Shown one piece after another: positions 3,862-38,168 of a DNA stretch of 64,000 bases. The stretch is from a virus. The stretch is taken from IMG/VR virus record IMGVR_UViG_3300036835_000374, positions 482 through 64,481 of that record; one strand, 5' to 3'. The first letter of the stretch is position 1, and each line of letters starts with the position of its first letter. Position numbers and translations under genes: made by a program. Under the pieces are notes generated by a model. It did no database searches. It saw only the letters and a list, made by a program, of their open reading frames with translations, and had not been told where the DNA came from.

Positions 3862-3949
3862 CGTCGTCTCCTCGTGTCCTAGTTCACTGGCGACTGTACT
3901 AGGCCACGCGTCATCCGGAAGAGGGGAGTATCCGCGAGTCACTAGCCGA

Positions 3950-5609: not shown

Positions 5610-6893
5610 CTACACCGCCTTGAGGACTCGAACAACGGCCTTCTCAGGCGCCATAACAGCAAGCACCTGAGCCGCCACATCCTCGGCACTGTGCTGATAC
5701 AGCCACGTCACCTTGCTGCCGCGGTCGTGCCCCATCACCGTCTGAACGTCCTTCTCCGGAACCCCGAGATCCTTCAACCGGGTAGCGAACACATGCCGCA
5801 GATCATGCACCCGCGGCCACCACTCATCCCGGCCCGTCTCCTCGTTCCGCACCTTCCGTGCCAGGCCAGCAGCCTGAATCGCCGGAATCCACGTCCTGCG
5901 GAAGTTGTGCCGGGTAAGAGTGCCACCGTTGGGCCCGCGGAACACCAGCTCCTCCGGATGCAAGTCCCGCCCGTCCCCGATCGGAGAGACGGTCTCCACC
6001 GGCTTGAAGCGGGCAGCCATCGTCCGCACGGCCTCAACAGCCGCCGGGGTGAGCGGCACCGTGCGGAAGCCGGCGGCCGACTTGGGAGCCGCCTTACGGA
6101 GCAAGGTCCCCCGGTCCTCGGTGAGCACTTCCTTTACCTTGAGGTGCTTAGCTTCCAGGTCAACATGCCCCCACCGCAGGCCGGTCGCCTCACCCCAGCG
6201 CATCCCCGTCTCTTCGAGGAACACGACGAGCGGCCGGTACCACACGCCGACGTGCTCACGGATCAGCGCGCACTGCTCCCGGGTCGGCGGCCGCGAGTCC
6301 TCGGTGTCCTTCTTCGGCGCAGCCCCGATCTCCACCTCGGCGGCCGGGTTGAACGGAATCCGCTTGCCGTCCTTCACCGCGGAGCGCAGCATCTGGTTCA
6401 GCAGCTCCAGCACCTTCTTCTTGGTGTGATAGCCCTTCACCTCCGCCGTGACCCACTTCTGCAGTTCGATGTACTCCAGATCGCACAGACGCCACTGGCC
6501 CCACTTCGGCTCGATGTGATGGCGCCAGTTGGAGAGTTTGCGGTTGGTCGTCGTGACGGCCTTCTTCGGCTGTGCCGGCCACCACAGGTCCCACCACTGG
6601 GACACGGTGATCTCGCCGCGTTTCGGGTCGCCGTACTCGCGGCGCCGGACGCGGGAGCGAACATCGTCGAGGAACGCCTCGGCTGCTTTCTTCCCGCCAT
6701 CGCTGATGGGGAAGTTCTTGGAGCACTGCTTGCCGGCCGGGTCCCTGTAGCGGGCTTGCCACGGGCCGGTGCAGTCCCGCCGTCGCTTGCGGTCGCTGTA
6801 CTTGTCGCCGGGCGGGTACACGTCCATGCAGCGGGCGCAGCCGCATGCCTTGGACGGCACCTGCCGTGGGTTGTTGACGGTCCTACGCCCCAT
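5610..6893 (-). CDS. int: Tyrosine integrase, 427 aa (VWB-like)
   Basis: GMRWGE (R), KSAAG (K), HDLRH, MGH and WLY catalytic set. N-terminal WQARYRDP arm-binding domain. Confidence 0.95.
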   Translation of the reverse strand: MGRRTVNNPRQVPSKACGCARCMDVYPPGDKYSDRKRRRDCTGPWQARYRDPAGKQCSKNFPISDGGKKAAEAFLDDVRSRVRRREYGDPKRGEITVSQWWDLWWPAQPKKAVTTTNRKLSNWRHHIEPKWGQWRLCDLEYIELQKWVTAEVKGYHTKKKVLELLNQMLRSAVKDGKRIPFNPAAEVEIGAAPKKDTEDSRPPTREQCALIREHVGVWYRPLVVFLEETGMRWGEATGLRWGHVDLEAKHLKVKEVLTEDRGTLLRKAAPKSAAGFRTVPLTPAAVEAVRTMAARFKPVETVSPIGDGRDLHPEELVFRGPNGGTLTRHNFRRTWIPAIQAAGLARKVRNEETGRDEWWPRVHDLRHVFATRLKDLGVPEKDVQTVMGHDRGSKVTWLYQHSAEDVAAQVLAVMAPEKAVVRVLKAV

Positions 6894-17960: not shown

Positions 17961-19037
17961 ATGGCCCGCGGACACGGACGCGTCCTCACCAGCATCTGGG
18001 ACGACGCCGACTTCCTCGCCCTCACCGAGCGCGAGCAACGCCTCTATCTGTTCCTCATTTCCCAGCCGAACCTCAACCACGCCGGCCTGCTCGACCTCAC
18101 CCTGCGCCGCTGGTCCCGCAAGGCCCACGGCCTCACCTCCGACGGGCTGGAGGAACTCCTTCAGTCCCTGGAGAAGGCCCGGTTCATCGTCATGGACGAC
18201 GACACCGAGGAACTCCTCATCCGCTCCTTTGTCCGTAACGACGGTGTGTGGAAGCAGCCCAAGGTGATGGGCGCCATGGTGTCCGGCGCGATGGAGATCT
18301 CTTCCTGGAAGCTGCGGCACGCGCTCCTCGCCGAGGTCGACCGGATCCCGCTGCACGAACTCAGCGACGAGCCCGGCGCCCGCGGAGTGTCGATCCGCGC
18401 TCAGGTCGCCGAGCACATCGAGAGCCTACGGAACGCCTTCGGTACCCCGCCCCCCAACCCGTCCGGAACGGGTACAGCAACCCCCTCCGGAACCCCTTCG
18501 GGAACCCCCTCCGATACCCCTGCCGAAGGGGGTCGGAAAGCCTCTACGCGCGCGCACGCGCCCGCGTCACGCGCGCATTCCCCTGCCCCTGCCCCTGCCC
18601 CTGCCCCTATCCCCAGCCCCGTAGAAGAGGGGGCTGCTGAGACCGGTGGGCAAGTCGAGCTTGTCGTCGTCGAGGACTCCGACTTCGTCGGCGCGACAGA
18701 AGCCGCGACCGTGTCTGCTCAGACGATCGTCGGCGAGTGGATCGACCGCTGCGCCAAGCGGCCCCCGTCCCAGACCATCGGCCAGACCTCGAAGCAGATC
18801 AAAAAGCTCCTCGATGACGGCATCGACCCCGATGACATCCGCCGAGGGCTCGCCAAGTGGATGGCCAAGGGCTCCGCCCCGTCCGCCATCCCGAGCTTCG
18901 TGAACGAGGCGATGAACGCGGCCTCGTCCTGGACGCCCTCGAACGTCATCGCCCTCCCCGGCCAGCAGCCACTCACTGGCACAGACGCCCGTGTAGCCGG
19001 CTGGCTCGCCCTCGCATCAGGAGACGACACCCAATGA
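17961..19037 (+). CDS. Replication initiator / replisome organizer
   Basis: IWDDADFLALTEREQRLYLFLISQP N-terminal HTH, Pro/Thr linker and C-terminal helical domain. Confidence 0.75.
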   Translation: MARGHGRVLTSIWDDADFLALTEREQRLYLFLISQPNLNHAGLLDLTLRRWSRKAHGLTSDGLEELLQSLEKARFIVMDDDTEELLIRSFVRNDGVWKQPKVMGAMVSGAMEISSWKLRHALLAEVDRIPLHELSDEPGARGVSIRAQVAEHIESLRNAFGTPPPNPSGTGTATPSGTPSGTPSDTPAEGGRKASTRAHAPASRAHSPAPAPAPAPIPSPVEEGAAETGGQVELVVVEDSDFVGATEAATVSAQTIVGEWIDRCAKRPPSQTIGQTSKQIKKLLDDGIDPDDIRRGLAKWMAKGSAPSAIPSFVNEAMNAASSWTPSNVIALPGQQPLTGTDARVAGWLALASGDDTQ

Positions 19038-26064: not shown

Positions 26065-26301
26065 CATGCCGCGGCCCGCCGTCAGTGAAGAAACGGCGGG
26101 CCACAGCGCCTCCAAGGGCGGCCCCCATTGCGGGACTGCCGACAGTACGCCCGGCATCCGCCGCAAGGGAAGACGTGTGTCAGCGGCCGCGCGTACCCTC
26201 GAACCGCTGGACGACCGCACCTGCTCTGCCGGCCGGACAGTGCTGCTACATGCGTAGGCCCCCGCCGATCCGTCGACGGGGGCCACGCTGCGCTCCGGGG
26301 G

Positions 26302-26736
26302 CTACTCGTTGTCGGGGTCCGGCGGCCCGTACCCGGCGGACTCCAGCTCCTGCATCAGGTCGCCGACGTCCGAGCCGAGCCCGTCGTTCGCGTCACTGAT
26401 CCACTCCCACACGATCTTCAGGATCGCGCGCGCATCGGCGCCGAGCGGTTGCACTTCCGTCTGTTCTTCGATCACCGGTACTGCTCCTTGCTGCTGTCTC
26501 GTGGCGAGGTCGGTCCGCTTGCCCTGCTGCTTCGGGTTCGCCTCGAACCAGGCGGCCACCTCGTCAGCACGGAAGCGCAGCTTCGTCTTCTCCATGCCTT
26601 CCACCGGAGCGGGCGCAGGGAAGGTGCCGCCGCGACGGTAGGCGTGCACGGTCGTCCGGCTGACGCCGTACTCGGCCGCGATCTCGCTGATGCTGATCAA
26701 TCGCGGACTCCCCTCGCGCTCAGGGTTCTTGGGCAC
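26302..26736 (-). CDS. AlpA/Xis-like HTH regulator of the transfer operon
   Basis: LISISEIAAEYGVSRTTVHAYRRGGTFPAP...FRADEVAAWF. GGGAGG RBS. Divergent from the transfer genes. Confidence 0.75.
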   Translation of the reverse strand: MPKNPEREGSPRLISISEIAAEYGVSRTTVHAYRRGGTFPAPAPVEGMEKTKLRFRADEVAAWFEANPKQQGKRTDLATRQQQGAVPVIEEQTEVQPLGADARAILKIVWEWISDANDGLGSDVGDLMQELESAGYGPPDPDNE

Positions 26737-26751
26737 GGCTACATCCTCCCT

Positions 26752-26779
26752 GAACTTCTTGACACTTGTCCAGAAGTTC
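26752..26779. promoter_or_regulatory. 28-bp near-perfect palindrome containing TTGACA
   Basis: GAACTTCTTGACACTTGTCCAGAAGTTC in the divergent intergenic region. Confidence 0.7.
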
Positions 26780-26871
26780 GCCACTGTGGAACAGCACCAA
26801 TGCAAGGGCCCCGGACGGGAGTTCGCACCTCCCGCCGGGGCCAGTCCACCCCTGACTGACCAGGAGAGACC

Positions 26872-27099
26872 GTGCCCGATCGTAACGGCCAACCCGCTGG
26901 CCAGCCCAGCCCCACGCTGGACGCCTACGCCCAAGCCGCCCAGGACTGCCGCGACATCGCGCAGCAGACCGGCGTCCGCAACTGCGACAGCGACCCCGAG
27001 TGGCGCGCCTCCGAGTACGAGGCCGAGCAGCGCTACACCGAGGCCCGCAGCGTCGGCTACTCGGCCGCCGAGGTCCTGAAGGCGGGGCGGAAGCAGTGA
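26872..27099 (+). CDS. Hypothetical protein, first gene of the transfer operon
   Basis: AGGAG RBS. Confidence 0.6.
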   Translation: MPDRNGQPAGQPSPTLDAYAQAAQDCRDIAQQTGVRNCDSDPEWRASEYEAEQRYTEARSVGYSAAEVLKAGRKQ

Positions 27100-27248
27100 C
27101 CGAGCAGCAGCCCGAGCCGGACCACACGCCGCAACCGAACCGGATCCTCGCCGAACCCGCCACGCCCGCCACGTGCGCCGCCGACTACGAGGCCGCCGCC
27201 GACGTCCGCCAGACCCTCGCCGCCCAAGAAGCGAGGACCCGCCGATGA
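27096..27248 (+). CDS. Small hypothetical protein
   Basis: Coupled on both sides. Confidence 0.5.
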   Translation: MTEQQPEPDHTPQPNRILAEPATPATCAADYEAAADVRQTLAAQEARTRR

Positions 27249-27451
27249 CCAGCGCTTGGCCTGACGGCGTGACCACCCGCTACGCGAACCTCGCCGGCGC
27301 CACCGTCGACATCAGCACCAGCCCGGCCACCGGCAAAACGTATGCCCTCTGCGGCGGCTGCCCCTGGACCGACGACAGCACCACCCCCAGCTACGTCCAC
27401 GGCAAGGCCCAAGGCCACGCCGAACGCTGCCGCGCCCTGCCCCGCCCCTGA
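27245..27451 (+). CDS. Small Cys/His protein
   Basis: CGGC...AQGHAERCRALPRP motif. Confidence 0.55.
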   Translation: MTSAWPDGVTTRYANLAGATVDISTSPATGKTYALCGGCPWTDDSTTPSYVHGKAQGHAERCRALPRP

Positions 27452-27591
27452 GACCGCCGCGCGGCCGGCTGACCGGTCCCCTCCCGTCCCGGCCGCGCGG
27501 CACGCCGTCCCGCTCGCCTCCGTTCCCCCACGGCCGAGCGGGACGGCACCCCAAGCCACCACCCCAAGACACCGAACGAAAGGAGCCCCAC

Positions 27592-27744
27592 ATGGGCCGC
27601 AAGAAGAACGAGACGACCGACCTCACCACCCCGACCAACATCCGCAAGGGCCAAGCCGTCTACGACCGAATGATCTCCGGCAAGTCCAAGGACGTCACGG
27701 CCGAGCTCCACAAGACCTACGGCACCAAGCCCAAGCGCGGCTGA
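27592..27744 (+). CDS. Small basic protein
   Basis: AAGGAG RBS, 50 aa. Confidence 0.55.
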   Translation: MGRKKNETTDLTTPTNIRKGQAVYDRMISGKSKDVTAELHKTYGTKPKRG

Positions 27745-27791
27745 CCGGCCACCCAGCAACCGGCCAAACCCGATCCGCAAGGACCCCGACC

Positions 27792-27905
27792 GTGGACGAC
27801 ACCGACCGCGCACAGCACGAGACCGACCCCGGACCCGAACAGGAAGCCGCTATCACCACCGGCCCCGCCGACTTCGGACTGAACACCGACACGACTGACC
27901 GGTAG
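27792..27905 (+). CDS. Very small acidic ORF
   Basis: AAGGA RBS before GTG, 37 aa. Confidence 0.35.
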   Translation: MDDTDRAQHETDPGPEQEAAITTGPADFGLNTDTTDR

Positions 27906-27977
27906 CCCTCGGTCCGCGTCTCGCACGCGGGCCCTGGAAATCCCTCAGCCACCCACCCCGAGCCTCAGGAGACCGCC

Positions 27978-28190
27978 ATGCCGAAATGCGCGTGGATCCT
28001 CACCGGAGCCCTGTTCTTCCTGCTGTCCCACACCATCGGGACCGCCGCGACCGTGGCAATCCCCTTCCAACTCGCCGCCTGGGTGATCCACACACCCGCC
28101 GCCCTCGTCATCGTCGCGTCCCTCGCCGCCTACCACCTGCTCAACTTCCACACCCCCCGACCCCGCCGCACCGCCCACACCCACCACTGA
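27978..28190 (+). CDS. Small membrane (Spd-like) protein
   Basis: AGGAG RBS, hydrophobic. Confidence 0.55.
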   Translation: MPKCAWILTGALFFLLSHTIGTAATVAIPFQLAAWVIHTPAALVIVASLAAYHLLNFHTPRPRRTAHTHH

Positions 28191-28223
28191 CCCCGCCCCG
28201 CCACGCGCCCCGGAGGCCCGACC

Positions 28224-29159
28224 GTGAACCGCCCAACCCGCACCCAGCGCATCCGCGACGCCGCCCTCTGGTGCCGCGACAGCGCCCTCGGCGGACTCGG
28301 CTACACCCTCGTCCTCACCGTCGCCGCCGCCGGATGGGCCGCCAGCTTCATCGGCCTCCACGACTTCGGCATGCACCACATGGGCCTCAGCCAAAACGCC
28401 GCCTGGCTCGTCCCCATCACCTTCGACGGCGCCCCCGCCGGCCTGTCCATCGTCGTCGCCCGCGCCTCCACCCACGGACGGCCCGCCCTCGTCTGGCGGC
28501 TCCTGATCGTCGGCTTCACCGGCCTGTCGTCGTGGATCAACTACCAGCACATCGACGATCCGCTCGGTCGCGGCGTCGCCGCGTTCATGCCGCCGTCCGC
28601 GGTGATCCTCTTCGAGGGCCTCATGTCCGAAGCACGGGCCGCAGCACAGCGCCGCCTCGGCCGCGCGATCCCGCGGATGCACCCGCTGCGGTGGGTGTTC
28701 GACCGGTCCGGGACCCTCGACCTGTACCGCCGGTACATCCTCGGCCTGCCACTGCCAACGGCTCTCGATGCCACCCCTGCCAGGCCGCCAGCGCCTGCCA
28801 CGAACCCTGCCAGCGCCCTGCCAGCCGAGGGTGCCAGCCGGGTGCCAGCCCCTGCCAGCCAGCCCCGCCAGCAGCCTGCCAGCCCCACCCTGCCAGCACA
28901 GGCGCCAGTGGCAGCGCCCGCGCCGGAGCAGCCCGCCACGCCTGCCAGTGCCAGCGACGCCAGCCAGGGCCGCGACCTCGACGAGGTGGCAGCCGCCTAC
29001 CGCTCCCTCCGCGCCAGCCTCGGCGTGCGCCGGCCATCATCCGCGAAGCTCGGCGAAGCCCTCGGCGTGTCCCGGTCCCGCGGCCAGCAGCTCCGCGAGC
29101 AGATCGAGACCCACCCCGACTACGCGGCGGAGTTCGCTCCGGCCCTGAAAAGCGCGTGA
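28224..29159 (+). CDS. DUF2637 membrane protein with C-terminal HTH (Spd-type)
   Basis: ASFIGLHDF, AWLVPITFDG, SSWINYQH and MPPSAVILFE motifs, four TM helices, C-terminal SAKLGEALGVSRSRGQQL HTH. Confidence 0.8.
   Translation: MNRPTRTQRIRDAALWCRDSALGGLGYTLVLTVAAAGWAASFIGLHDFGMHHMGLSQNAAWLVPITFDGAPAGLSIVVARASTHGRPALVWRLLIVGFTGLSSWINYQHIDDPLGRGVAAFMPPSAVILFEGLMSEARAAAQRRLGRAIPRMHPLRWVFDRSGTLDLYRRYILGLPLPTALDATPARPPAPATNPASALPAEGASRVPAPASQPRQQPASPTLPAQAPVAAPAPEQPATPASASDASQGRDLDEVAAAYRSLRASLGVRRPSSAKLGEALGVSRSRGQQLREQIETHPDYAAEFAPALKSA
28778..28954 (+). repeat. TGCCAG direct-repeat array (10 exact copies plus variants)
   Basis: Copies at 28778, 28808, 28819, 28832, 28843, 28853, 28877, 28891, 28943 and 28949, in two different codon phases. 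Confidence 0.85.
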
Positions 29160-29170
29160 GGTGACGTGCC

Positions 29171-31081
29171 GTGACTGACGCACCGAACGTCTGGAAGACC
29201 GCATACGGGCCCCTCCCGCGCCGCGACACGTCACGTCACCTCAAGCGGCTGCGGGGCGTTCTCGCAGGTCGCTGGCGGTACCTACTCCCGATCGGAGCAG
29301 CCCCCGCCTGGGGTGCGTGGATCTACACCGAACACTGGCTCACCGACGTGACATGGCGTGAACCCCTCGCCTACGGCGGCACCGGCGTTCTCGCCCTCAG
29401 CGGCACCGTGTGCGCAGCCGTCCTCGGCGTCCGCAACCCCGCCGCCCTCTACGCCGGCACCTTCACCAGCGGCATCCTCACCTGGTCCGCGTGGCAGGTG
29501 ACAGACCCGTCCCTGCCAGGCCTGGCAATCGGCGCCGTTGGCAGCCTGGGTGCCAGCGTCCCCTACTGGGCGTGGCTGGCACGCCACCTCCTCGACCGCG
29601 ACAAGCTGGCAGCCAAGACTGGCAAGCTGGCACCCCCGGACTCTGGCAGCGTGCTGGCACCCGACGACGTGGCAGGCGCCCTCGCTGCCACTGGCACCCC
29701 GGGCGCCAGCCTCGACCAGATGCACCGCCACCCCGACGGCGCCTGGACCGCCATCGTCAGCCTGCCCGTTGGCAGCAGCCCGCACGACATCGTCGGCAAC
29801 GCCGGCCGCATGGCGCGCCTGCAAGCCGCGCTCCGGCTGCCCCCGGGCTGGACCCTGGAAGCCGAAGACGGGGGAGCGTCGCACCACCTGATCGTCACCG
29901 CCCGCCCGCCAGCCCCGCCACGCGCCGAGGTCGTCATCCCCGACGTGCATCCGATCGTCGACCACCTCGGCGAGTGGGACCCGTGGCAGCCGCTCCTCGC
30001 CGCCCTGGACGTCGAGACCGGCGAGTCCGTGTTCCTGCACCTTCTCGGCCGGGCCGGGATCCTCATCGCGGGCCTGCAGCGCATGGGCAAGAGCGTGCTG
30101 CTGTCGGTGATCGTCGCGCATCTGGCACTGTCGAAGGCGCGGTTGATCCTCGCTGACGCCAAGCTCGTCGAACTCTCTTTGTGGGCGCCGCTGTGCCAGC
30201 GCCCGGACGACTTCGTAGGCCGGGACCCGGAGGCGTTCCTCGCGAAGCTGCTGGAACTGCAGACCGAGATCGACCAGCGGTACGCGCGGCTCGTTGAGGA
30301 AGGCCGCACCAAGGCCGCACCGGGCGACAACTGGGAGCCCATCGCTCTCATCGTCGACGAGCTCGCCGCGTTCATCGACATCCCAGACCGAAAACTCCGC
30401 GGGAAGATCGTGTCCGTTCTCCGCGACATCGTCTCCCGCGGTCCCGCATGTCTGGTGCCCGTGATCCTGGCGACACAGAAGCCTGAAGACAAGGTGGTCC
30501 CGTCGCAGATCCGCGACGTGTGCGGGCAGAAGGTCGCACTCGCCACGACCACACCGCAGATGACCGACACGATCCTTGGCCAAGGGTGGGCGTCCCGCGG
30601 CGCAACGCCGCACCTGTTCGGCGAGACCGACAAGGGCTCCGCCTGGATGCTCGAAGACGGCAGCCGGCCGCGGCAGGTGCAGACGTTCCCGTTCGAGCCG
30701 CCTGCCCGCCGCGAAGTCATCGACTACGCGCACAAGCTGTGGCCCGACCGTCCCGGGGCGCGGGTCCCGCTGCCCGGCGCCGACGAGCCCGATCCGGACC
30801 CGGACGGTGGCGGCAGGCCGCGGCTGCGGTCGGTGCCGTGCTTCCCGGACGGGACACGGATCCCGGACAACCGGGTCGGGTTGTGGCAGGCGATGGACCG
30901 TGCCGGTGGTGGCGGGTTCACGATCAACGACCTGGTGGCGTTGGGCTTGCCCGGCTACAGCGCCCGCACTTCGGTGGATGGTCCGCTGCAGCAGTGGCGG
31001 CGGTCCGGCTGGGTGGTGGAGATCGGCAAGCACGGTCGGGCGCAGTTGTTCGCTCTGGCCCGGCACGCGAAGGCGGCATGA
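29171..31081 (+). CDS. traB: TraB-like FtsK/SpoIIIE conjugative DNA translocase
   Basis: N-terminal TM helices, Walker A GLQRMGKS, Walker B IVDE, LATQKP motif and C-terminal wHTH. Confidence 0.88.
   Translation: MTDAPNVWKTAYGPLPRRDTSRHLKRLRGVLAGRWRYLLPIGAAPAWGAWIYTEHWLTDVTWREPLAYGGTGVLALSGTVCAAVLGVRNPAALYAGTFTSGILTWSAWQVTDPSLPGLAIGAVGSLGASVPYWAWLARHLLDRDKLAAKTGKLAPPDSGSVLAPDDVAGALAATGTPGASLDQMHRHPDGAWTAIVSLPVGSSPHDIVGNAGRMARLQAALRLPPGWTLEAEDGGASHHLIVTARPPAPPRAEVVIPDVHPIVDHLGEWDPWQPLLAALDVETGESVFLHLLGRAGILIAGLQRMGKSVLLSVIVAHLALSKARLILADAKLVELSLWAPLCQRPDDFVGRDPEAFLAKLLELQTEIDQRYARLVEEGRTKAAPGDNWEPIALIVDELAAFIDIPDRKLRGKIVSVLRDIVSRGPACLVPVILATQKPEDKVVPSQIRDVCGQKVALATTTPQMTDTILGQGWASRGATPHLFGETDKGSAWMLEDGSRPRQVQTFPFEPPARREVIDYAHKLWPDRPGARVPLPGADEPDPDPDGGGRPRLRSVPCFPDGTRIPDNRVGLWQAMDRAGGGGFTINDLVALGLPGYSARTSVDGPLQQWRRSGWVVEIGKHGRAQLFALARHAKAA
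29522..29696 (-). repeat. Inverted array of the same hexamer (CTGGCA, 8 exact copies)
   Basis: Copies at 29522, 29576, 29606, 29619, 29627, 29643, 29654 and 29691, again in two codon phases. Confidence 0.8.
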
Positions 31082-31082
31082 C

Positions 31083-31412
31083 ATGGAGCAGCACATTCGC
31101 ACGGCTGCCGAGCAGCAGGTGCAGATCGGGTACGACATGGCCGGCCGCCCCATGTACGCGCCGCCGGTCCCCTACCAGTACCAGCCCGTGCAGCCGTACC
31201 CGTTGCCCCCGATCCGGCAGCATCCGTGGGGTGCGTACATTGCGGGCGGCTGCCTCGGCGTGCTGGCGTTGACGGTGCTGGTGGTGGCGGTCGCGTTCGT
31301 GGTGTTCGGGTTCGCGATCCTGGCTGCGGTGCTGGCGTTGGCGGTGGTGGCGTTGACGATCTGTCTGTTGGTGTTGCGGGGGATGTGGAGGGATTACCAG
31401 AAGAGGCGTTGA
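31083..31412 (+). CDS. SpdD-like membrane protein
   Basis: Pro/Gln-rich N-terminus, long hydrophobic hairpin, basic tail. Follows traB. Confidence 0.6.
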   Translation: MEQHIRTAAEQQVQIGYDMAGRPMYAPPVPYQYQPVQPYPLPPIRQHPWGAYIAGGCLGVLALTVLVVAVAFVVFGFAILAAVLALAVVALTICLLVLRGMWRDYQKRR

Positions 31413-31543
31413 CGCGCGTGCCACACTGGGTGTGTCGAATGCAGCCCCCGCCGGTCCCCGTCCGGTGGGGGTTCGTCGTTTTCACCCCGGTTGTCGGTGC
31501 CAGCCGCTACGATCCGCGGCATTCGACACCGCTTGGGGGGACC

Positions 31544-31777
31544 ATGCGCCACAGACCGGTTGTCTGCCTGCTTGCTGCCATGCTCGCGCTCGCTGGCTGC
31601 TCCGGCGACGACCACAAGCCGGATCCTGCGGCATGCCGGAAGGCGATCAAAGCGCAGTACGTGCCGGGCACAGCGAAGTTGAAGGGTGAGCCGGAGCGGC
31701 CGAAGGAGTGCGATGGTCTCAGTACGGACCAGGTATCGAGCATCGCGGAGAGCGTGATCGAAGAGCTTTCGAAGTAG
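31544..31777 (+). CDS. Small lipoprotein
   Basis: Signal peptide with lipobox LAGC and two further Cys residues. Confidence 0.75.
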   Translation: MRHRPVVCLLAAMLALAGCSGDDHKPDPAACRKAIKAQYVPGTAKLKGEPERPKECDGLSTDQVSSIAESVIEELSK

Positions 31778-31789
31778 ACGGGCGTGCAG

Positions 31790-31824
31790 CGGCCCCGCTC
31801 CGGATCACCGTCCGGGCGGGGCCG
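31790..31824. terminator. Bidirectional hairpin terminator
   Basis: CGGCCCCGC...GCGGGGCCG between convergent genes. Confidence 0.6.
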
Positions 31825-31840
31825 TCGTCACGCGGTGGGC

Positions 31841-32014
31841 TTAGCGTCTCAGTGTCTTCCACGTGAACCAGCGCCAGAGGTCGCGCAGGTGCCACATGCG
31901 CGTGCCAGGTCCGGCGCGGTCGGGTACTGCCGTGATGTAGATGAACGCGACCCAGAACCCGATCAGGACGACGATGGCTGCGCTGGGCAACAGGGCGTTC
32001 ACGAAGTCGCTCAT
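31841..32014 (-). CDS. Small single-TM protein
   Basis: MSDFVNALLPSAAIVVLIGFWVAFIYIT..., 57 aa, coupled. Confidence 0.55.
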   Translation of the reverse strand: MSDFVNALLPSAAIVVLIGFWVAFIYITAVPDRAGPGTRMWHLRDLWRWFTWKTLRR

Positions 32015-32361
32015 GTGGTGGGCTCCTCGTCCGGGCGCACCGGGCCCGCGCCGAGGGCTCGCGCCGTGGACTCGTCGAGATATGCCCGGTGCTTACGGAC
32101 ACCCTCCTCGTCGTACGGCGCGTCCACCCCGATCTCCGCATGGATCCGCTGGTACACGCCGTCCTCGATCAGTTGGATGTCGAGTTTCTCCCACGGTGTC
32201 GGGCCGACGAGCGGCGTGATGGCCTTGATACGGCCCTCGATCCAGTCGCAGTGCATCGACCAGTTGCCTTTGTAGGCGCTGCGGCGGGCGGTCTGGAGGT
32301 CGGTCCATAGGCAGGACAGTTCCTCGGATAGGGCCTCGCGTAGGGTCTCCAGCTCGTTCAT
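32011..32361 (-). CDS. Hypothetical protein
   Basis: GAGGAG RBS, coupled. Confidence 0.6.
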   Translation of the reverse strand: MNELETLREALSEELSCLWTDLQTARRSAYKGNWSMHCDWIEGRIKAITPLVGPTPWEKLDIQLIEDGVYQRIHAEIGVDAPYDEEGVRKHRAYLDESTARALGAGPVRPDEEPTT

Positions 32362-32663
32362 GCGCTCGTCTCCTCGCTGCCCACCGGGCGCTCCGGGGCG
32401 GTGGTCGTCTTGCGGAGCCGTTCGGCCCTCTCCTTGTACCGCTCGTCAGTCTCGATGCCGGCTTCGCGCGCCATCTTCCGAACGTAAGCGGCGGTCCAGC
32501 CGGACGCCTTGGTGACCTCGGTCGGCTTGTGCGCGCCATCCCGGAGCGCGGCGAGCACGAGTGCCTTGAGCGCGTCGCTGGACTGCTTGAGTCGTTCGGC
32601 GTCGCGCTGTCGTCGTGCGCCGGCCGCTGCGATCTCGTCGAGTGTGGGTCCCTGGGTTGCCAT
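32358..32663 (-). CDS. Small HTH protein (same type as 17010-17222)
   Basis: GAHKPTEVTKASGWTAAYVRKMA motif. Confidence 0.65.
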   Translation of the reverse strand: MATQGPTLDEIAAAGARRQRDAERLKQSSDALKALVLAALRDGAHKPTEVTKASGWTAAYVRKMAREAGIETDERYKERAERLRKTTTAPERPVGSEETSA

Positions 32664-32769
32664 GAGAACAAGGTACCGCAACAGGGTTGCGATGCCACCC
32701 CCTCAGGCGTACAGTCTGAGTCACGGCAAGCGATAGCAGGTATCGCTACCGATGAGCCAAGGGGATTCG

Positions 32770-33153
32770 ATGAACGCCAAGACCCGCACCCGCCGCAACG
32801 GCCTCCACGCCGCAGCCACCACCAGCAAGGCCCTCGGCTACCGCACCCTCTCCGGCATCATCGCCACCCACGTCGACGCCGGCCGGCTCATCCGCACCGG
32901 CGACTTCCTCAACCGCATCGGCGGCAGCGACCTCCCCGACGGCAAGCAGTCCTGGTTCGGCCGGCACGTCGCGAAGGCCTACCGCGCCGCCACCGGCCGC
33001 GAGCCCCTCCGCGTGTGGGCGCAGCACCGGACGACGGGCAAGTGGATCCACGTCTTCGTGTACGGCGCCATCGACCCCGCCCTGTACGCCGGCCTCCGCT
33101 CCTACAAGGGCACCCAGCACCTCCTCCGCGCCTCGTACTCGGAGGCTGCCTAG
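32770..33153 (+). CDS. Hypothetical basic protein
   Basis: Divergent from the HTH gene. GGGGG RBS. Confidence 0.6.
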   Translation: MNAKTRTRRNGLHAAATTSKALGYRTLSGIIATHVDAGRLIRTGDFLNRIGGSDLPDGKQSWFGRHVAKAYRAATGREPLRVWAQHRTTGKWIHVFVYGAIDPALYAGLRSYKGTQHLLRASYSEAA

Positions 33154-33234: not shown

Positions 33235-34263
33235 ATGGCCCGCTTTCAGGCCCGCCTGGACGAACTCGGTGCAACGCTCCTGGAGGACAGGTGGCTTGGG
33301 CGAGACGTTCCTCACCGGGTCCGCTGCGCAGCCGGCCACGAGTGTTCGCCGCGCCCCAGCGGCGTGATCAGAGGCCAGGGCGTCTGCCTCATCTGCGCAG
33401 GCAGGGACCCGCGCGTGTCCGAGGCTGCGTTCCGGGCCCGGCTCGCACAGTTGGGCGCGACGCTCGTCGAGCCGACCTGGCTCGGCGTCGAGCGTCCTCA
33501 CCGTGTGATCTGCTCGAACGGCCACGAGTGCAGCCCGCGACCACACTCTGTCCAGCAGGGGCAGGGGATCTGCGCGACTTGCGCCCGGCGCAGCCCGGCG
33601 CTGGCCGAAGCCAAGTTCCGCGCCCGGCTGGCCGAGGTGGGTGCGACACTCCTGGAGTCAAGTTGGCTCGGCGCCAGCACGCCTCACCGGGTCCTTTGCG
33701 CCGCAGGACACGAGTGCAGTCCGCGCCCCGGGAACGCCTACTCCGGACACGGCATCTGCGAAGCCTGCGCCAGCCGGTGTACCCGGACGGCAGAAGCTGC
33801 CTTCCGGGCCCGGCTGGAGGAACTGGGTGCGACCCTCCTCGAACCGAAGTGGCTTGGGAACGACCGCCCGCACCGAGTCCTCTGCTCCGCAGGGCATGCG
33901 TGTCGTTCACGCCCCGCCCACGTACAGCAGGGGCACGGCGTATGTCGCTTCTGCGCCAACAAGGAGTGGGACACCTTCTACGTCGTCGCCAACGGAGACG
34001 ATCAGTTAGTCAAGTTCGGCATCACCAATGGCGCTGGGCGCGCTCGCCTGGCGAGGCACCGACGCGACGGGTTCACGACGGTCATACGCCTGTTGCGGGG
34101 GCTGCCCTCCGACACGTCCGTACAGATGGAGGCCGACGTCCTTGCGACGTTGCGTCTCGCGCGCGAAGAGCCAGCGCGTGGCCGGGAGTACTTCCCTGAC
34201 CATGTGACGGCCCTCGTGCTCGACATCGTCGACCACTACCCAGGCGTTCCCCGCCCGCGCTGA
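33235..34263 (+). CDS. Four Zn-ribbon repeats plus GIY-YIG/T5orf172-like nuclease domain
   Basis: 4 copies of about 62 aa (FRARL.ELGATLLE..WLG...PHRV.C..GH.C..RP.....G.G.C..CA), then FYVV...VKFGIT...RL..H...E...GREYF. Confidence 0.7.
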   Translation: MARFQARLDELGATLLEDRWLGRDVPHRVRCAAGHECSPRPSGVIRGQGVCLICAGRDPRVSEAAFRARLAQLGATLVEPTWLGVERPHRVICSNGHECSPRPHSVQQGQGICATCARRSPALAEAKFRARLAEVGATLLESSWLGASTPHRVLCAAGHECSPRPGNAYSGHGICEACASRCTRTAEAAFRARLEELGATLLEPKWLGNDRPHRVLCSAGHACRSRPAHVQQGHGVCRFCANKEWDTFYVVANGDDQLVKFGITNGAGRARLARHRRDGFTTVIRLLRGLPSDTSVQMEADVLATLRLAREEPARGREYFPDHVTALVLDIVDHYPGVPRPR

Positions 34264-35711: not shown

Positions 35712-38168
35712 CTACCGGGCGATCCACCCACCACCCGACGCCAACGGCAGCAGCTCAAGACTGTCCCACTGCGCGGCCAACGACGCCGACGCCGACCCGT
35801 TCACCGTCTCACTGCCCGCCGCAGCCACCGTCACCGCGTTCCCGCTGGAGTCCGTCTTCGTCACCAGCAGCCGCCGGCACCTGCCTGCCGCCGTCGGCAG
35901 CGTGACCGTGAACGTCCCACTGCTCGCGTCGGCCTGAACCGACTCGTCGAACGTCGAAGCCGTGTACGCCCCCGTGACCGCGACCGCCGGATACGAGAGC
36001 TGCCCGTCGAGGATGTCGTAGCCGACAGGGTGATCGAGAGTGAGGTTGGCGCGCGTGTACAGGCCGGTGAGGACCACGTCGCCGCGCGCTGTGCTGGAGG
36101 CGAAGCCGGAGTTGTTGTCGCCGAACCGGGGGGTGCTCGTCTCCGTGTCGACCCGCAGGTGCAGGAACGGTCCGAGACCGCCGGAGCCCGCGCCGATGAT
36201 GTAGACGAGGTACGTGCACGCCTCGATACTGAGGAGGGTGGCGACGATCGCGTGCGTGCTGCCCACCGACGAGTAGTAGGTGCCGACCGGGCAGAACGCG
36301 GCCCAGCAGTACAGGATCCGCATCCCGTACACGTCCGCGTGCTCGGTGACGAACACCCCGTAGGTGTAGCCGCCGTGGCAGGTCACGTTCCGCAGCAGCA
36401 CCAGGTCGTTGTTCCCGGACGCAGGCAGCAGCAAGCCGGGACACAGGCCGTTCGCGAAACCGCCCGGCGAGCTGTAGTCACCGCCGGCCACGGTGCCCGC
36501 GGTGCCGTAGGCGAAGTTCTCGATGGCGGCGTTGGCGAGACCGGTGAGATCGGCTGCGCCGTAGGTGAAGCCGTTCGCCGAGTGCGTCGTCAAGACCGAC
36601 AGGTTCCGCAGGGTGACGTGCATGTTGGAGAACACGCCAGGGCTCACGCCGTAGCCGCCCGGCTGGCTTGGGCCGCCGATCACGGCCGCGTTCCCCGCCG
36701 CGTTGATCGATGCGATCTGCGCGGCGAACGAAGCGAACACCCCGAACGACACGAGCGTGGCCCCCGACATCTGCGGCACCGTCTGCTCCCAGTGCTGCAC
36801 CGCCGCCCCATCCGCGGGCCCCTCGAAGGTCAGCACGACCTTGCTGCCGGTGGTGGCCACGACCGGCAGCGTCAGCTGCGAGTTGCCCTTCGTCGCCCCG
36901 CCCGTGACCAGCGGCCCGGCGATCCCGTAGAACCGGCCCGACGGAGCCGCAGGGAAGCGGATGGTGGCTGCACCGTGCGCCGCCGCATACGTGCCGGCCG
37001 CGTCGATCGCCGACTGGATCGCGGCAGTGTCGTCGGTCGCCCACATCACCAGCGCGTTGGTCACGTTGCCGCCGGAGGCATTCGCCGCGGCCAGCGTCAC
37101 AGAGGTCGAGGAATCGACGGTGCTGATCGTGGTGACCAGCGTCGTCACCCCGGACGCCCCGGCACCCTTGACGAGGATCGCCTTGCCCTGGTCCCCGGCC
37201 GTGAACGCTGCGGTGGCGCTGGTGAGCGTCGTCGACCCGGAGGACATCGCCCCATCGGTGACGACCTGCCCGTCGCCCACCGCGCCGTAGACGTTGTCGG
37301 TGACGTCGAACACCCACGCATCCGTGCCGGATGCCGCGTCCTGCCACACTGCAGTCGTGGAACCGGTCGCGGTCAGCACCTGCCCGGAGGATGGCGTCCC
37401 CGACACCCCGATCCCGTTGACCTTCGCGACCGTCGGATCCGGGTACGTGCCGGACAGGTCCCCGCCAGCAGGCCCGGTCGGTGTCCGCGCATCCGACAGA
37501 CGGGCATCGTCGCCCTCGCACGCCGTGCCGCCGCTCGCGCCGTAGGTGACGTTCAGGGTGCGGTCCGCGGCGAGGGTGCCGCCACCGGTCAGGCCGGTTC
37601 CGGCGATGATCTGCGTTGCTGCTGCGGCCCTGGTCGCTGTCTGCGTGTCGGTGTAGCTCCGGTCGCCGTGCGGGTCAGCCGCCGCAACGTGCGAGGCGAC
37701 GGCCGCTGCCGCAGCTCCGGAAGCGTCGGCGCCGACATCCGCGGCGGCCAGAGTGACTACGCCGGTGTGCCCGTTGACGGACAGCACGGACGGCGACACC
37801 ACCGTGCCAGCCGTGGAGCTGGTGGGTGCCACGTCCGGGAGCGCCACCGTCGGCACGGATGCGGGCAGGCTGATGCTGTAGGAGCGGGGCGGCTGACCGG
37901 TGAAGTTCTCGTCGACCCGGTAGGTCCAGTCGGTCGGGGTGAATCCGTCCGCGTCGGTCGCGAGAACGGGCCCGAGCGTGAACGTGCCCGACGCGCCCAG
38001 GGTGGCGTTGACGGGGCCGAGGACGATCAGCCCGTGCATGGAGGAGACGACGCGCTCCACGGACGGGGTGAGCGTGACCGTGCCCGCGGCGGCCGTGCCG
38101 TCGGGGTTGGCGAGGCCGCTGGTTCCGGCGTTGAGGGTGACGGAGTCGACCCCGGCAGGAAGGCCCAT
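35712..38168 (-). CDS. Spike/fibre-like protein with probable pectin-lyase-type beta-helix
   Basis: Fibre motifs VLSVNGHTGVVTL, HVAAADPHG, GTGLTGGGTL and GDLSGTYPDPTV; YGAVGDG...DDTAAIQSAIDAA...IRFP (pectate-lyase-3-like start); C-terminal FTVTLPTA...TKTDSSGNAVTV domain. Confidence 0.75.
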   Translation of the reverse strand: MGLPAGVDSVTLNAGTSGLANPDGTAAAGTVTLTPSVERVVSSMHGLIVLGPVNATLGASGTFTLGPVLATDADGFTPTDWTYRVDENFTGQPPRSYSISLPASVPTVALPDVAPTSSTAGTVVSPSVLSVNGHTGVVTLAAADVGADASGAAAAAVASHVAAADPHGDRSYTDTQTATRAAAATQIIAGTGLTGGGTLAADRTLNVTYGASGGTACEGDDARLSDARTPTGPAGGDLSGTYPDPTVAKVNGIGVSGTPSSGQVLTATGSTTAVWQDAASGTDAWVFDVTDNVYGAVGDGQVVTDGAMSSGSTTLTSATAAFTAGDQGKAILVKGAGASGVTTLVTTISTVDSSTSVTLAAANASGGNVTNALVMWATDDTAAIQSAIDAAGTYAAAHGAATIRFPAAPSGRFYGIAGPLVTGGATKGNSQLTLPVVATTGSKVVLTFEGPADGAAVQHWEQTVPQMSGATLVSFGVFASFAAQIASINAAGNAAVIGGPSQPGGYGVSPGVFSNMHVTLRNLSVLTTHSANGFTYGAADLTGLANAAIENFAYGTAGTVAGGDYSSPGGFANGLCPGLLLPASGNNDLVLLRNVTCHGGYTYGVFVTEHADVYGMRILYCWAAFCPVGTYYSSVGSTHAIVATLLSIEACTYLVYIIGAGSGGLGPFLHLRVDTETSTPRFGDNNSGFASSTARGDVVLTGLYTRANLTLDHPVGYDILDGQLSYPAVAVTGAYTASTFDESVQADASSGTFTVTLPTAAGRCRRLLVTKTDSSGNAVTVAAAGSETVNGSASASLAAQWDSLELLPLASGGGWIAR

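What the first reader, a model, noticed from the sequence alone, without database searches (positions are those of the whole stretch)
26302..31412. Virion-forming phage carrying a Streptomyces conjugal transfer module (TraB plus Spd-type genes)
Seen: between the early operon and the packaging genes of a complete siphophage lie a divergent HTH regulator and an operon ending in a DUF2637+HTH membrane protein, a TM-FtsK-wHTH translocase (GLQRMGKS, IVDE) and an SpdD-like gene. Known: in Streptomyces plasmids and AICEs, TraB alone can transfer double-stranded circular DNA between hyphae, and Spd proteins aid spreading. Inference: the excised phage circle may have two horizontal routes, virions and hypha-to-hypha conjugation, bypassing receptors and possibly mobilising chromosomal DNA. 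The cassette has no recognisable integrase or Rep of its own, so it would serve the phage replicon. I cannot say how often this has been reported.
Basis: partly seen in the sequence, partly recalled or inferred. Interest (0 to 1): 0.9.

Follow-up and report, generated by a model that had tools for sequence, protein, structure and literature searches.

The report
Plasmid-type DNA pump in Streptomyces phage
A complete temperate tailed phage of Streptomyces from soil carries the TraB-type DNA pump, membrane helper genes and a likely docking site that Streptomyces plasmids use to push double-stranded DNA between hyphae, so it may also spread without virus particles; phage-plasmid hybrids of this kind are already known (pZL12).

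Summary
At 26302-31483 lies a self-contained transcription unit. It holds a divergent HTH_17 regulator, an operator-like palindrome, small ORFs, a 70-aa 2-TM protein and a DUF2637 membrane protein. These are followed by a 636-aa TraB-like FtsK/SpoIIIE translocase, a 109-aa Pro-rich/TM protein and a strong terminator. It sits inside a 67.2-kb phage genome with its own integrase, replication initiator and siphovirus morphogenesis genes.

TraB has intact Walker A/B motifs, an FtsK alpha/beta motor fold and a C-terminal winged helix. It is 30% identical to the characterised pSVH1 TraB (E 3e-22). Outside its own clade, its nearest relatives are Tra proteins of canonical AICEs. Two oppositely oriented arrays of YGCCAG flank the traB start. 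Rare-codon use shows they are maintained at the DNA level, so they look like a clt.

The TraB clade occurs only in phage or phage-plasmid contexts and is under purifying selection. No repeats mark the cassette as a separate element.

The dual-route interpretation is plausible but untested, and it is not new. pZL12 is an experimental precedent, SpdB2 homologues are known in phiC31 and VWB, and FtsK-like genes are common in actinophages. This scan has already noted the same kind of module on at least 8 other genomes. Verdict: a new variant of a known kind, of moderate interest.

The parts
26302..26736 (-). Divergent HTH_17 (MerR/Xis-like) regulator, 144 aa, GTG start with GGGAGGA ribosome-binding site
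   Evidence: PF12728 E 1.4e-8; phrog_66 E 1.3e-16; start codon; conserved with L007 at 73% nt
26752..26779 (.). 28-bp imperfect palindrome (8-bp perfect arms) in the divergent promoter region; candidate operator
26872..27099 (+). First ORF of the operon, 75 aa, soluble, no family hit. One to three further small ORFs between 27100 and 27970 are uncertain.
   Evidence: GC3 0.92; Pfam found nothing
27978..28190 (+). 70-aa hydrophobic (about 2-TM) protein, conserved just upstream of the DUF2637 gene in related phages
   Evidence: GC3 0.90; hydrophobic segments and homologues in L004 and L007; nt conservation
28224..29159 (+). DUF2637 membrane protein (311 aa) with a Pro/Ala/Ser-rich linker and a basic C-terminal tail; it occupies the SpdB2 position upstream of traB
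   Evidence: PF10935 E 5.4e-33; phrog_10376. A 53%-identical homologue of pSVH1 SpdB2 passes the DUF2637 threshold. Direct BLAST and hhalign to SpdB2 are not significant.
28779..29017 (+). Forward array: 17 copies of GCCAG (10 exact TGCCAG; 8-mer CCTGCCAG) on the + strand, inside the DUF2637 linker-coding region
   Evidence: Pro codons CCT/CCA make up 11/17 here against 9.8% background, p 1.6e-7, and the motif falls in two codon phases.
29171..31081 (+). TraB-like dsDNA translocase, 636 aa: four N-terminal hydrophobic helices, FtsK alpha/beta motor, C-terminal winged helix
29522..29696 (-). Reverse array: 8 copies of TGCCAG on the - strand, inside the linker-coding part of traB, convergent with the forward array
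   Evidence: Ala codons GCA/GCT make up 7/13 here against 14% background, p 0.001, and the motif falls in two codon phases.
30071..30094 (+). Walker A motif (GLQRMGKS, residues 301-308)
   Evidence: G301, G306, K307 and S308 are invariant in 25 homologues
30350..30361 (+). Walker B motif (IVDE, residues 394-397)
   Evidence: D396 and E397 are invariant
30866..31057 (+). C-terminal winged helix-turn-helix (residues 566-629)
   Evidence: AF2 pLDDT 86-89 in the full model and 87 when folded alone, topology H-H-H-beta-beta. The leading Foldseek matches (PerR/Fur, SmtB/ArsR, MepR/MarR, RNA polymerase III winged helix) are winged-helix DNA-binding domains, TM 0.6-0.65, E 0.01-0.1.
31083..31412 (+). 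109-aa protein with a Pro-rich N-terminus and a C-terminal TM region; its ATG comes two bases after the traB stop codon ('Spd-like' by architecture only)
   Evidence: GC3 0.91. Analogous genes follow traB in L004, in L007 and in phage Gilgamesh (gp9).
31443..31483 (+). Intrinsic terminator (12-bp stem, 9 GC pairs, T tail) that closes the operon

Best explanation
This is a native module of a temperate Streptomyces siphovirus. The phage genome is 67.2 kb and circular or terminally redundant. The module is homologous to the tra/spd transfer-and-spreading region of actinomycete conjugative plasmids and AICEs.

Proposed mechanism. The operon has its own divergent HTH_17 regulator and operator and its own terminator. 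When it is derepressed, TraB hexamers anchored in the membrane bind the convergent YGCCAG arrays (a clt-like site) through the C-terminal winged helix. TraB then pumps the circular double-stranded phage genome across a membrane, septal cross-wall or hyphal contact. The DUF2637 (SpdB2-position) protein and the two small TM proteins would form the accompanying membrane complex. The result would be virion-independent movement of phage DNA. That could be spreading between compartments of one mycelium, transfer into a neighbouring mycelium, or both. Establishment in the recipient would follow through the phage's own integrase and replication initiator.

Shown here: gene content, homology, fold, intact catalytic motifs, purifying selection, DNA-level selection on the arrays, phage-only context of the clade, and absence of signs of a nested element. 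Inferred: binding of TraB to the arrays, the substrate, the direction of transport, and any actual transfer.
For: - TraB has PF01580 and phrog_1358 hits and intact Walker A/B motifs.
- It is 30% identical over 350 aa to the experimentally characterised pSVH1 TraB, E 3e-22.
- The AF2 model has an FtsK alpha/beta motor. Top PDB matches are FtsK bound to dsDNA (6T8O, 2IUT; E 2e-14) and the conjugation coupling protein TcpA. It also has a confident C-terminal winged helix.
- The nearest proteins outside the clade (E 1e-30 to 1e-43) are about 450-aa Tra proteins; the two whose contexts were examined (P0092, P0066) lie in canonical AICEs with RepSA and Int (P0092 also NUDIX and Xis). A bona fide FtsK scores only E 1e-4.
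- The gene order regulator(-) / small ORFs / membrane protein / traB / small TM gene mirrors pSVH1 and SLP2.
- DUF2637 genes sit next to tra in a pFP11-like plasmid, in pMR2, in a Saccharopolyspora plasmid and at 3 of 8 chromosomal DUF2637 loci.
- The pFP11-like DUF2637 protein is 53% identical to SpdB2.
- Arrays: 20 of the window's 51 TGCCAG sites lie within 920 bp. There are 17 forward and 8 reverse GCCAG against a background of 3.5 per kb.
- It is the strongest short-word (6- and 7-mer) clustering in the window.
- Rare-codon enrichment and two codon phases show selection on the DNA itself.
- The arrays are kept in L003 and L004/L005 although individual positions have turned over.
- Nucleotide conservation among otherwise diverged phages begins exactly at the forward array and ends at the traB stop.
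- traB dN/dS is 0.16-0.32.
- Every close homologue whose context was examined lies in a phage-like or phage-plasmid context. L003 has a TerL 7.7 kb downstream. A 125-kb circular S. zaomyceticus replicon has portal, capsid and tape-measure genes.
- Precedent: conjugal transfer of pZL12 needs its tra gene (PMC3583192). Its relative pSLE1 has a regulator-operon-Tra block immediately upstream of the terminase. The idea that phage SpdB2 homologues spread phage DNA is published (PMC4447253).
Against: - There is no functional data and no RNA evidence.
- The deep phylogeny is unresolved. The clade is a long-branched lineage of its own with no supported sister among plasmid TraBs.
- L007 has a nearly identical winged helix but weaker arrays of CGCCAG rather than TGCCAG. 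The 65%-identity clade has no array at this position. The link between winged helix and array is therefore not clean.
- The arrays could instead be bound by the DUF2637 protein or by the regulator.
- The DUF2637 to SpdB2 link is only transitive, through the Pfam model. BLAST and hhalign are not significant.
- Five of 8 chromosomal DUF2637 genes have no Tra gene nearby.
- FtsK-like genes also occur in large phages such as Gilgamesh and the cluster J mycobacteriophages, where other roles have been proposed.
Confidence: 0.6

Rival explanations
1. The translocase serves an intracellular phage function. Examples are segregation or partition of phage or prophage DNA into hyphal compartments and spores, resolution or processing of replicating DNA, or help with replication. 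The arrays would then act as KOPS/SRS-like polarity signals, not as a transfer origin.
For: The architecture (TM anchor, motor, winged helix) is the same as in FtsK/SpoIIIE. Convergent polar arrays recall KOPS converging on dif. Authors of Streptomyces phage papers suggest a replication-related role for FtsK-like proteins (PMC11536984). Cluster J mycobacteriophage FtsK-like proteins group with a bona fide FtsK.
Against: Similarity ranks AICE Tra above plasmid TraB and far above septal FtsK. No FtsK_alpha or FtsK_gamma Pfam domains were found. The translocase sits in an operon with membrane proteins of the kind found in transfer modules. The motif is clustered in 920 bp and is not spread with a strand skew over the replicon.
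Confidence: 0.2
2. The module acts on other DNA or on the host: exclusion of incoming plasmid, AICE or phage DNA, interference with the host's septal translocases, or mobilisation of host DNA. In that case it is a moron that benefits the lysogen or the phage indirectly.
For: It is an autonomous transcription unit with its own regulator and terminator, as is typical of morons. PHROGs files phage FtsK-like proteins under 'moron/host takeover'. A lipoprotein gene follows the terminator.
Against: The cis-array is carried on the phage genome itself and is co-inherited with traB, which points to the phage DNA as the substrate. No known exclusion system uses a TraB-type pump.
Confidence: 0.1
3. The cassette is a remnant of an AICE or plasmid that inserted into the phage and is carried passively. 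It would be non-functional or decaying cargo, or an independent nested element.
For: The nearest outgroup proteins are AICE Tra proteins. Phage genomes are mosaic: TraB is 88% identical between the window and L003, while their TerL proteins are only 52% identical.
Against: - Reading frames and catalytic motifs are intact.
- dN/dS is 0.16-0.32 across homologues down to 65% identity.
- The clade is monophyletic (100/100) and is found only in phage contexts.
- The cassette has no Int or Rep, and no flanking direct repeat is longer than 15 bp.
- Contigs in the source-candidate run (X1) are continuous across both borders; four soil runs hold pieces of the cassette and no credible cassette-less form was seen.
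Confidence: 0.07

Closest known systems
Streptomyces plasmid-phage pZL12 / phiZL12 (Zhong et al. 2010, J Bacteriol 192:3747) and its relative pSLE1 (NZ_LN831788)
   Same: A tailed-phage genome also carries a Streptomyces-type (FtsK-like, single-protein) tra gene in an operon behind a divergent regulator, placed between early genes and the terminase. For pZL12, conjugal transfer needing the major tra gene plus two neighbouring genes is reported (PMC3583192).
   Different: pZL12 and pSLE1 are ParA/ParB-maintained plasmid prophages of 86-90 kb. Here the genome is 67 kb with a tyrosine integrase, and no Par genes were found among the ORFs scanned. The Tra proteins are not detectably similar by BLAST (E 0.15); pSLE1's Tra belongs to the family common on large Streptomyces plasmids. 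The regulator is HTH_17, not GntR, and the partner is a DUF2637 protein.
pSVH1 tra/spd region (TraR, SpdB3-Spd79-SpdB2, Orf108, TraB, clt) of S. venezuelae
   Same: The gene order is divergent regulator, small ORFs, polytopic membrane protein, traB, small proteins. The TraB motors are homologous (E 3e-22). Both TraBs have a C-terminal DNA-recognition domain (known for pSVH1, predicted here), and both loci have short repeated words as the (candidate) clt. The Spd genes are closely packed; the small TM gene's ATG follows the traB stop by two bases.
   Different: The host replicon is a virion-forming phage, not a 12-kb rolling-circle plasmid. TraB is 636 aa rather than 772 aa and belongs to a separate clade. 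SpdB2 itself is not detectably similar to the DUF2637 protein. The repeats are YGCCAG in two convergent arrays inside coding sequence, not the pSVH1 TRS (GACCCGGA, recalled from memory and not checked here).
AICEs of the pSAM2/pMR2 type (Int, Xis, RepSA, Tra, NUDIX)
   Same: These hold the nearest Tra relatives outside the clade. pMR2 also has a DUF2637 gene in its transfer region. The element has a tyrosine integrase and an HTH_17 protein.
   Different: There is no RepSA, RepAM or Prim-Pol replication gene (Pfam found nothing for the phage initiator). A full morphogenesis and lysis module is present. The element is 67 kb, against 10-25 kb for an AICE.
'FtsK-like DNA translocase' genes of cultured actinophages (Streptomyces phage Gilgamesh gp10-gp9; cluster J mycobacteriophages)
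   Same: These are phage-borne FtsK-family translocases. The Gilgamesh gp10-gp9 pair (translocase plus an overlapping membrane protein) matches the traB plus small TM gene pair, and gp9 is homologous to the 147-aa protein that follows traB in L007.
   Different: Gilgamesh gp10 is only 30% identical over 39% of the protein, and no DUF2637 gene was found upstream of it. The cluster J proteins group with a bona fide FtsK. No function has been assigned to any of them.

Membership tests
Streptomyces TraB-type conjugative dsDNA translocase | FtsK/SpoIIIE P-loop motor with intact Walker A and B | tested here: met
   PF01580 E 5e-7; motifs at residues 301-308 and 394-397, invariant in 25 homologues; Foldseek to the FtsK motor, E 2e-14
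Streptomyces TraB-type conjugative dsDNA translocase | Sequence homology to an experimentally characterised TraB | tested here: met
   pSVH1 TraB: 30% identity over residues 190-539, E 3e-22
Streptomyces TraB-type conjugative dsDNA translocase | N-terminal membrane-association domain | tested here: inconclusive
   AF2 predicts four long helices at residues 22-150, but with pLDDT below 50. A simple hydropathy scan flags only one segment at a strict threshold.
Streptomyces TraB-type conjugative dsDNA translocase | C-terminal winged helix that recognises clt | tested here: met
   The fold is present: H-H-H-beta-beta, pLDDT 87, and the leading PDB matches are winged-helix DNA-binding domains. DNA binding itself cannot be tested with these tools.
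Streptomyces TraB-type conjugative dsDNA translocase | A cis-acting clt made of repeated short recognition words near traB | tested here: inconclusive
   Arrays are present, strongly clustered and selected at the DNA level. Binding by TraB is not shown, and motif and winged-helix type do not co-vary cleanly.
Streptomyces TraB-type conjugative dsDNA translocase | Groups with plasmid/AICE Tra rather than septal FtsK | tested here: inconclusive
   By score, AICE Tra (E 1e-43) ranks above plasmid TraB (1e-18) and FtsK (1e-4). In the tree the clade is monophyletic (100/100), but its sister is unresolved.
Streptomyces TraB-type conjugative dsDNA translocase | Mediates contact-dependent transfer or pock formation | not testable with these tools
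   Needs mating experiments
SpdB2 / DUF2637 spread-protein family | DUF2637 domain; polytopic membrane protein encoded next to tra | tested here: met
   PF10935 at 114.6 bits; directly upstream of traB. The same adjacency is seen in a pFP11-like plasmid, in pMR2 and in a Saccharopolyspora plasmid.
SpdB2 / DUF2637 spread-protein family | Homology to characterised SpdB2 of pSVH1 | tested here: inconclusive
   Direct BLAST E 1.5 and hhalign probability 0.7%. However, a 53%-identical SpdB2 homologue passes the DUF2637 threshold at 34.8 bits. SpdB2's N-terminal coiled coil is absent here.
AICE (Ghinet et al. 2011 criteria: Int + Rep + Tra) | AICE-type replication gene (RepSA, RepAM, Prim-Pol) | tested here: not met
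   The only initiator found is phage-type (phrog_8064 E 3e-76), with no Pfam Rep family hit
AICE (Ghinet et al. 2011 criteria: Int + Rep + Tra) | No virion genes; size about 10-25 kb | tested here: not met
   A full packaging, head and tail module is present in a 67.2-kb genome
pZL12-type plasmid-phage | Phage morphogenesis genes plus a Streptomyces tra gene on one replicon | tested here: met
pZL12-type plasmid-phage | Plasmid maintenance by ParA/ParB; Tra of the pZL12/pSLE1 family | tested here: not met
   Tra is not similar to pSLE1 Tra (E 0.15). No Par protein was found among the ORFs scanned, and an integrase is present instead. The Par search was not exhaustive.
Septal FtsK/SpoIIIE | FtsK_alpha and FtsK_gamma domains; chromosomal, not on a mobile element | tested here: not met
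   Only PF01580 is found. A true FtsK (P0107) scores E 1.4e-4. The gene lies in a phage genome.

The most novel reading that the evidence does not exclude
An integrative temperate siphovirus is at the same time a working AICE-like element. A phage-specific TraB clade loads on two convergent YGCCAG arrays hidden in the coding sequence around its own start codon. It then exports the excised phage circle to neighbouring compartments and hyphae. This would give the phage a receptor-independent, virion-independent route under a switch separate from the lysis/lysogeny decision. Together with at least 8 similar modules noted elsewhere in this scan, dual-route transmission would then be a common strategy of Streptomyces phages and not a peculiarity of pZL12.
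Probability: 0.35. Interest if true: 0.75.

Novelty: new variant of a known kind. Interest (0 to 1): 0.5.

Why it matters
If the module works as inferred, a tailed phage of a mycelial bacterium has two transmission routes: particles, and direct pumping of dsDNA. This bears on how phages spread through multicellular hosts, on escape from receptor-based resistance, and on the fluid boundary between phages, AICEs and plasmids in actinomycetes. It also gives a compact test system: one pump, one candidate docking site and a few membrane proteins. The finding further suggests that 'FtsK-like DNA translocase' annotations in Streptomyces phages hide at least two different origins, TraB/AICE-like and FtsK-like. 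The concept is not new, because pZL12 was shown to conjugate in 2010. The value here lies in the new variant and its well-defined candidate cis site.

Tried and rejected
- **Nested element.** A search for direct repeats flanking the cassette found nothing longer than 15 bp (repeat finder). There are no tRNA genes in the window.
- **DUF2637 equals SpdB2 by direct comparison.** BLAST and hhalign of shallow alignments were not significant. Only the transitive Pfam link holds.
- **Pfam support for an HTH in the DUF2637 C-terminus.** None, even at E<=1.
- **Phylogeny to decide TraB versus FtsK.** The clade is solid, but deep nodes are unresolved and long branches attract each other.
- **Looking for pZL12 itself.** The paper is not held. 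pSLE1's Tra has no match in the phage collection, so pSLE1 was used as a stand-in.
- **A matching array in the 65%-identity (type B winged helix) elements.** There is none near traB. A TCCCGG x6 cluster in the DUF2637 linker of the S. zaomyceticus replicon may simply reflect a Pro/Val/Ala peptide repeat.
- **Exact-pattern scans.** The genome collection gave no hit with the single protein. The family is rare: 2 species genomes and 2 other IMG/VR contigs.
- **RNA evidence.** No RNA run holds the sequence.
- **Laying contigs of four soil runs.** This showed continuity across the cassette but nothing about excision; the listed 'joints' have sides of only 20-27 letters and are not credible.
- **Promoter scan.** No sigma-70 consensus promoter was found in 26200-32800. 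This is not informative for Streptomyces.

Full report
**What is there.** Third-position GC (GC3) gene calling and family searches give the following map for 26302-31483:
- On the minus strand, a 144-aa HTH_17 (MerR/Xis-like) protein at 26302-26736 (PF12728 E 1.4e-8; phrog_66 E 1.3e-16).
- A 28-bp palindrome (26752-26779), 16 bp upstream of that gene's start.
- On the plus strand, a 75-aa ORF (26872-27099), followed by one to three uncertain small ORFs.
- A conserved 70-aa hydrophobic protein (27978-28190).
- A 311-aa DUF2637 protein (28224-29159, PF10935 E 5e-33).
- A 636-aa FtsK/SpoIIIE protein (29171-31081).
- A 109-aa protein with a Pro-rich N-terminus and a C-terminal TM region (31083-31412). 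Its ATG comes two bases after the traB stop codon.
- A strong intrinsic terminator (31443-31483).

**The surrounding element is a complete phage.**
- The window belongs to a 67,330-bp IMG/VR record. Its first 144 bases repeat at its end with one mismatch, so the molecule is circular or terminally redundant and 67.2 kb long.
- It comes from a soil metagenome. Pieces identical to the cassette are found in four soil runs. Contigs run across both cassette borders, and no credible cassette-less form was seen.
- The phage has an amidase endolysin, a GntR/UTRA regulator and a tyrosine integrase (5610-6893).
- It has a Rad52-like recombinase, an exonuclease, a sigma-like protein and its own replication initiator (17961-19037, phrog_8064 E 3e-76).
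- Morphogenesis genes: TerS, TerL (phrog_38 E 6e-57), an SPP1-type portal, scaffold, an HK97-type capsid, tail completion and terminator proteins, a 187-aa major tail protein, a 1532-aa tape measure and tail-fibre genes. This is a siphovirus-type virion module.
No direct repeat longer than 15 bp flanks it.

**The translocase.**
- The protein aligns with the experimentally characterised TraB of pSVH1 over residues 190-539 (30% identity, E 3e-22).
- An AlphaFold model built from 25 homologues shows four N-terminal helices (low confidence), an alpha/beta motor at 165-525 and a C-terminal H-H-H-beta-beta domain at 566-629 with pLDDT 86-89.
- Foldseek places the motor on FtsK bound to dsDNA (6T8O, 2IUT; E 2e-14) and on the conjugation coupling protein TcpA.
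- The C-terminal domain folded alone (pLDDT 87) matches mainly winged-helix DNA-binding domains, at TM 0.6-0.65.
- In a 5.8-billion-protein search there is a tight family at 62-100% identity, all of whose named members are from Streptomyces. Scores then drop sharply to about 450-aa proteins (E 1e-30 to 1e-43). Next come 770-aa pSVH1-type TraBs (1e-18), and only then a bona fide FtsK with alpha and gamma domains (1e-4).
- Two of the 450-aa proteins were looked up. Both sit in textbook AICEs: FtsK, RepSA and Int in both, with NUDIX, an HTH regulator and an HTH_17 Xis as well in one.
- A maximum-likelihood tree of the motor domain recovers the phage clade with 100/100 support on a long stem. It does not resolve the clade's sister.
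- traB is under purifying selection: dN/dS is 0.16-0.32 overall and 0.11-0.22 in the motor.

**The partner genes.**
- pSVH1 has the order traR(-) / small genes / spdB2 / orf108 / traB. SLP2 has spdB2-like / traB.
- A pFP11-like plasmid has a 'DUF2637' gene directly upstream of traB. That protein is 53% identical to pSVH1 SpdB2 (E 1e-135) and passes Pfam's DUF2637 threshold at 34.8 bits.
- pMR2 and a Saccharopolyspora plasmid also have DUF2637 genes in their transfer regions.
- In two Streptomyces genomes, 3 of 8 chromosomal DUF2637 genes have a Tra-like gene within 7 kb.
- The window's DUF2637 protein therefore occupies the SpdB2 position and shares a Pfam family with SpdB2 homologues. Direct BLAST and hhalign to SpdB2 are not significant, and the supposed C-terminal HTH has no Pfam support.
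- The small TM proteins are 'Spd-like' only by architecture and position.
- The protein that follows traB in a related phage contig (L007) is homologous to gp9, the membrane protein that follows the 'FtsK-like DNA translocase' gp10 of the cultured Streptomyces phage Gilgamesh.

**A candidate clt.**
- Twenty of the window's 51 TGCCAG sites lie within 920 bp.
- Counting the core GCCAG, there are 17 copies, all on the plus strand, at 28779-29017 in the linker-coding part of the DUF2637 gene.
- There are 8 copies on the minus strand at 29522-29696 in the linker-coding part of traB. The background is 3.5 per kb on both strands together.
- It is the strongest short-word (6- and 7-mer) clustering in the window.
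- The arrays are not a by-product of peptide repeats. In the first array, 11 of 17 proline codons are the rare CCT or CCA, against 9.8% elsewhere (p 1.6e-7). In the second, 7 of 13 alanine codons are GCA or GCT, against 14% (p 0.001). The motif falls in two codon phases in each gene.
- The arrays are retained, with turnover of individual positions, in the 88%-identical relatives L003 and L004/L005.
- Nucleotide-level conservation between these otherwise diverged phages starts at the first array and stops at the traB stop codon. Array and pump therefore travel together as one module.
- Caveats. L007 has a nearly identical winged helix but a weaker CGCCAG array. The 65%-identity clade has a different winged-helix type (dN 0.50 in that domain) and shows no array at this position. 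Which protein binds the arrays is unknown.

**Where the clade lives.** Close homologues whose context could be read all lie in phage-like DNA:
- A 40-kb IMG/VR contig with a TerL (52% identical to the window's) 7.7 kb downstream of traB.
- S. ipomoeae and metagenome contigs full of small phage-type genes such as Endonuclease_7, DUF6221 and Gp80.
- A 125-kb circular 'plasmid' of S. zaomyceticus with portal, major capsid, tape-measure and integrase genes, which is a phage-plasmid.

Only traB is shared between that replicon and the window.

**Comparison with what is known.**
- The plasmid-phage pZL12/phiZL12 is the experimental precedent. [quoted passage not shown] 2010, as cited in PMC3583192; the original paper is not held).
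- Its relative pSLE1 shows a GntR(-) / operon / 774-aa FtsK-like Tra block immediately upstream of the terminase. That Tra is not detectably similar to the one here.
- Thoma et al. [quoted passage not shown]
- FtsK-like genes are routinely annotated in actinophages without a tested function.
- This scan's own notebook lists at least 8 other genomes with a TraB/DUF2637/Spd-like module in a complete phage. These are unchecked AI notes and not independent evidence, but they agree with what I found.

**Verdict.** The homology claim (a tra/spd-type module native to a virion-forming phage) is well supported. The functional claim (a second, contact-dependent route) is the best explanation, at about 0.6 for any virion-independent DNA movement and less for true intermycelial conjugation. 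It is untested. The finding is a new variant of a known kind. It is integrative rather than plasmid-borne. It has a distinct phage-specific TraB clade close to AICE Tra and a DUF2637 partner. It also has a well-defined convergent array as candidate cis site. Interest is moderate.

Noticed in passing
G000 record, bases 1-144 and 67187-67330 (outside the window, which is 482-64481 of the record): The contig ends are a 144-bp direct repeat with one mismatch. The record that IMG/VR classes as 'linear, 85% complete' is probably a complete circular or terminally redundant 67.2-kb genome.
   Followed up: partly
L001 / L015 (NZ_CP107934.1, S. zaomyceticus NBC_00415 'plasmid unnamed1', 125 kb circular): This replicon is annotated as a plasmid but carries a portal, a major capsid protein, a 1363-aa tape-measure-like protein, tail genes, an integrase and a 4453-aa UvrD-domain giant protein. 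It also has an ATP-grasp RiPP pair (tgmA/tgmB) and a type-B TraB. It looks like a large phage-plasmid. Similar contigs of about 126-130 kb exist in several Streptomyces genomes.
   Followed up: partly
window 3112-3942 (-): A GntR/UTRA regulator next to the integrase is 24% identical (E 1e-8) to TraR of pSVH1, the repressor family (TraR/KorA/KorSA) that controls transfer genes on Streptomyces plasmids and AICEs. It lies 25 kb from traB.
   Followed up: partly
window 31544-31777 (+): A 77-aa predicted lipoprotein (lipobox LAGC) lies just after the operon terminator. It could be a surface or exclusion function.
   Followed up: no
L021 (Streptomyces phage Gilgamesh gp10-gp9) and L010 (NZ_CP107821.1, 132-kb plasmid of Streptomyces sp. 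NBC_00536): Gilgamesh's FtsK-like translocase groups 100/100 with the translocase of a 132-kb circular 'plasmid' whose neighbourhood looks phage-like (DUF6221 and many small ORFs). This may be another phage-plasmid lineage with its own TraB-like clade.
   Followed up: no
L022 (Mycobacterium phage Courthouse gp201): The cluster J mycobacteriophage 'FtsK-like' protein groups 100/100 with a bona fide FtsK (alpha, motor and gamma domains), not with the TraB/Tra lineages. Phage 'FtsK-like' annotations therefore cover at least two different origins.
   Followed up: partly
L015:41858-43153 (-): The DUF2637 gene of the S. zaomyceticus replicon has six TCCCGG within 175 bp of its Pro/Val/Ala linker. 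This may be a codon or peptide-repeat effect, or a different cis array; it was not resolved.
   Followed up: partly
window 35712-38168 (-): An 818-aa protein with tail-fibre and pectin-lyase-like PHROG hits is encoded on the opposite strand just upstream of terS, outside the tail module.
   Followed up: no
window 33235-34263 (+): A 342-aa protein with four 186-bp tandem repeats matches HNH/endonuclease PHROGs (phrog_681 E 2e-21).
   Followed up: no
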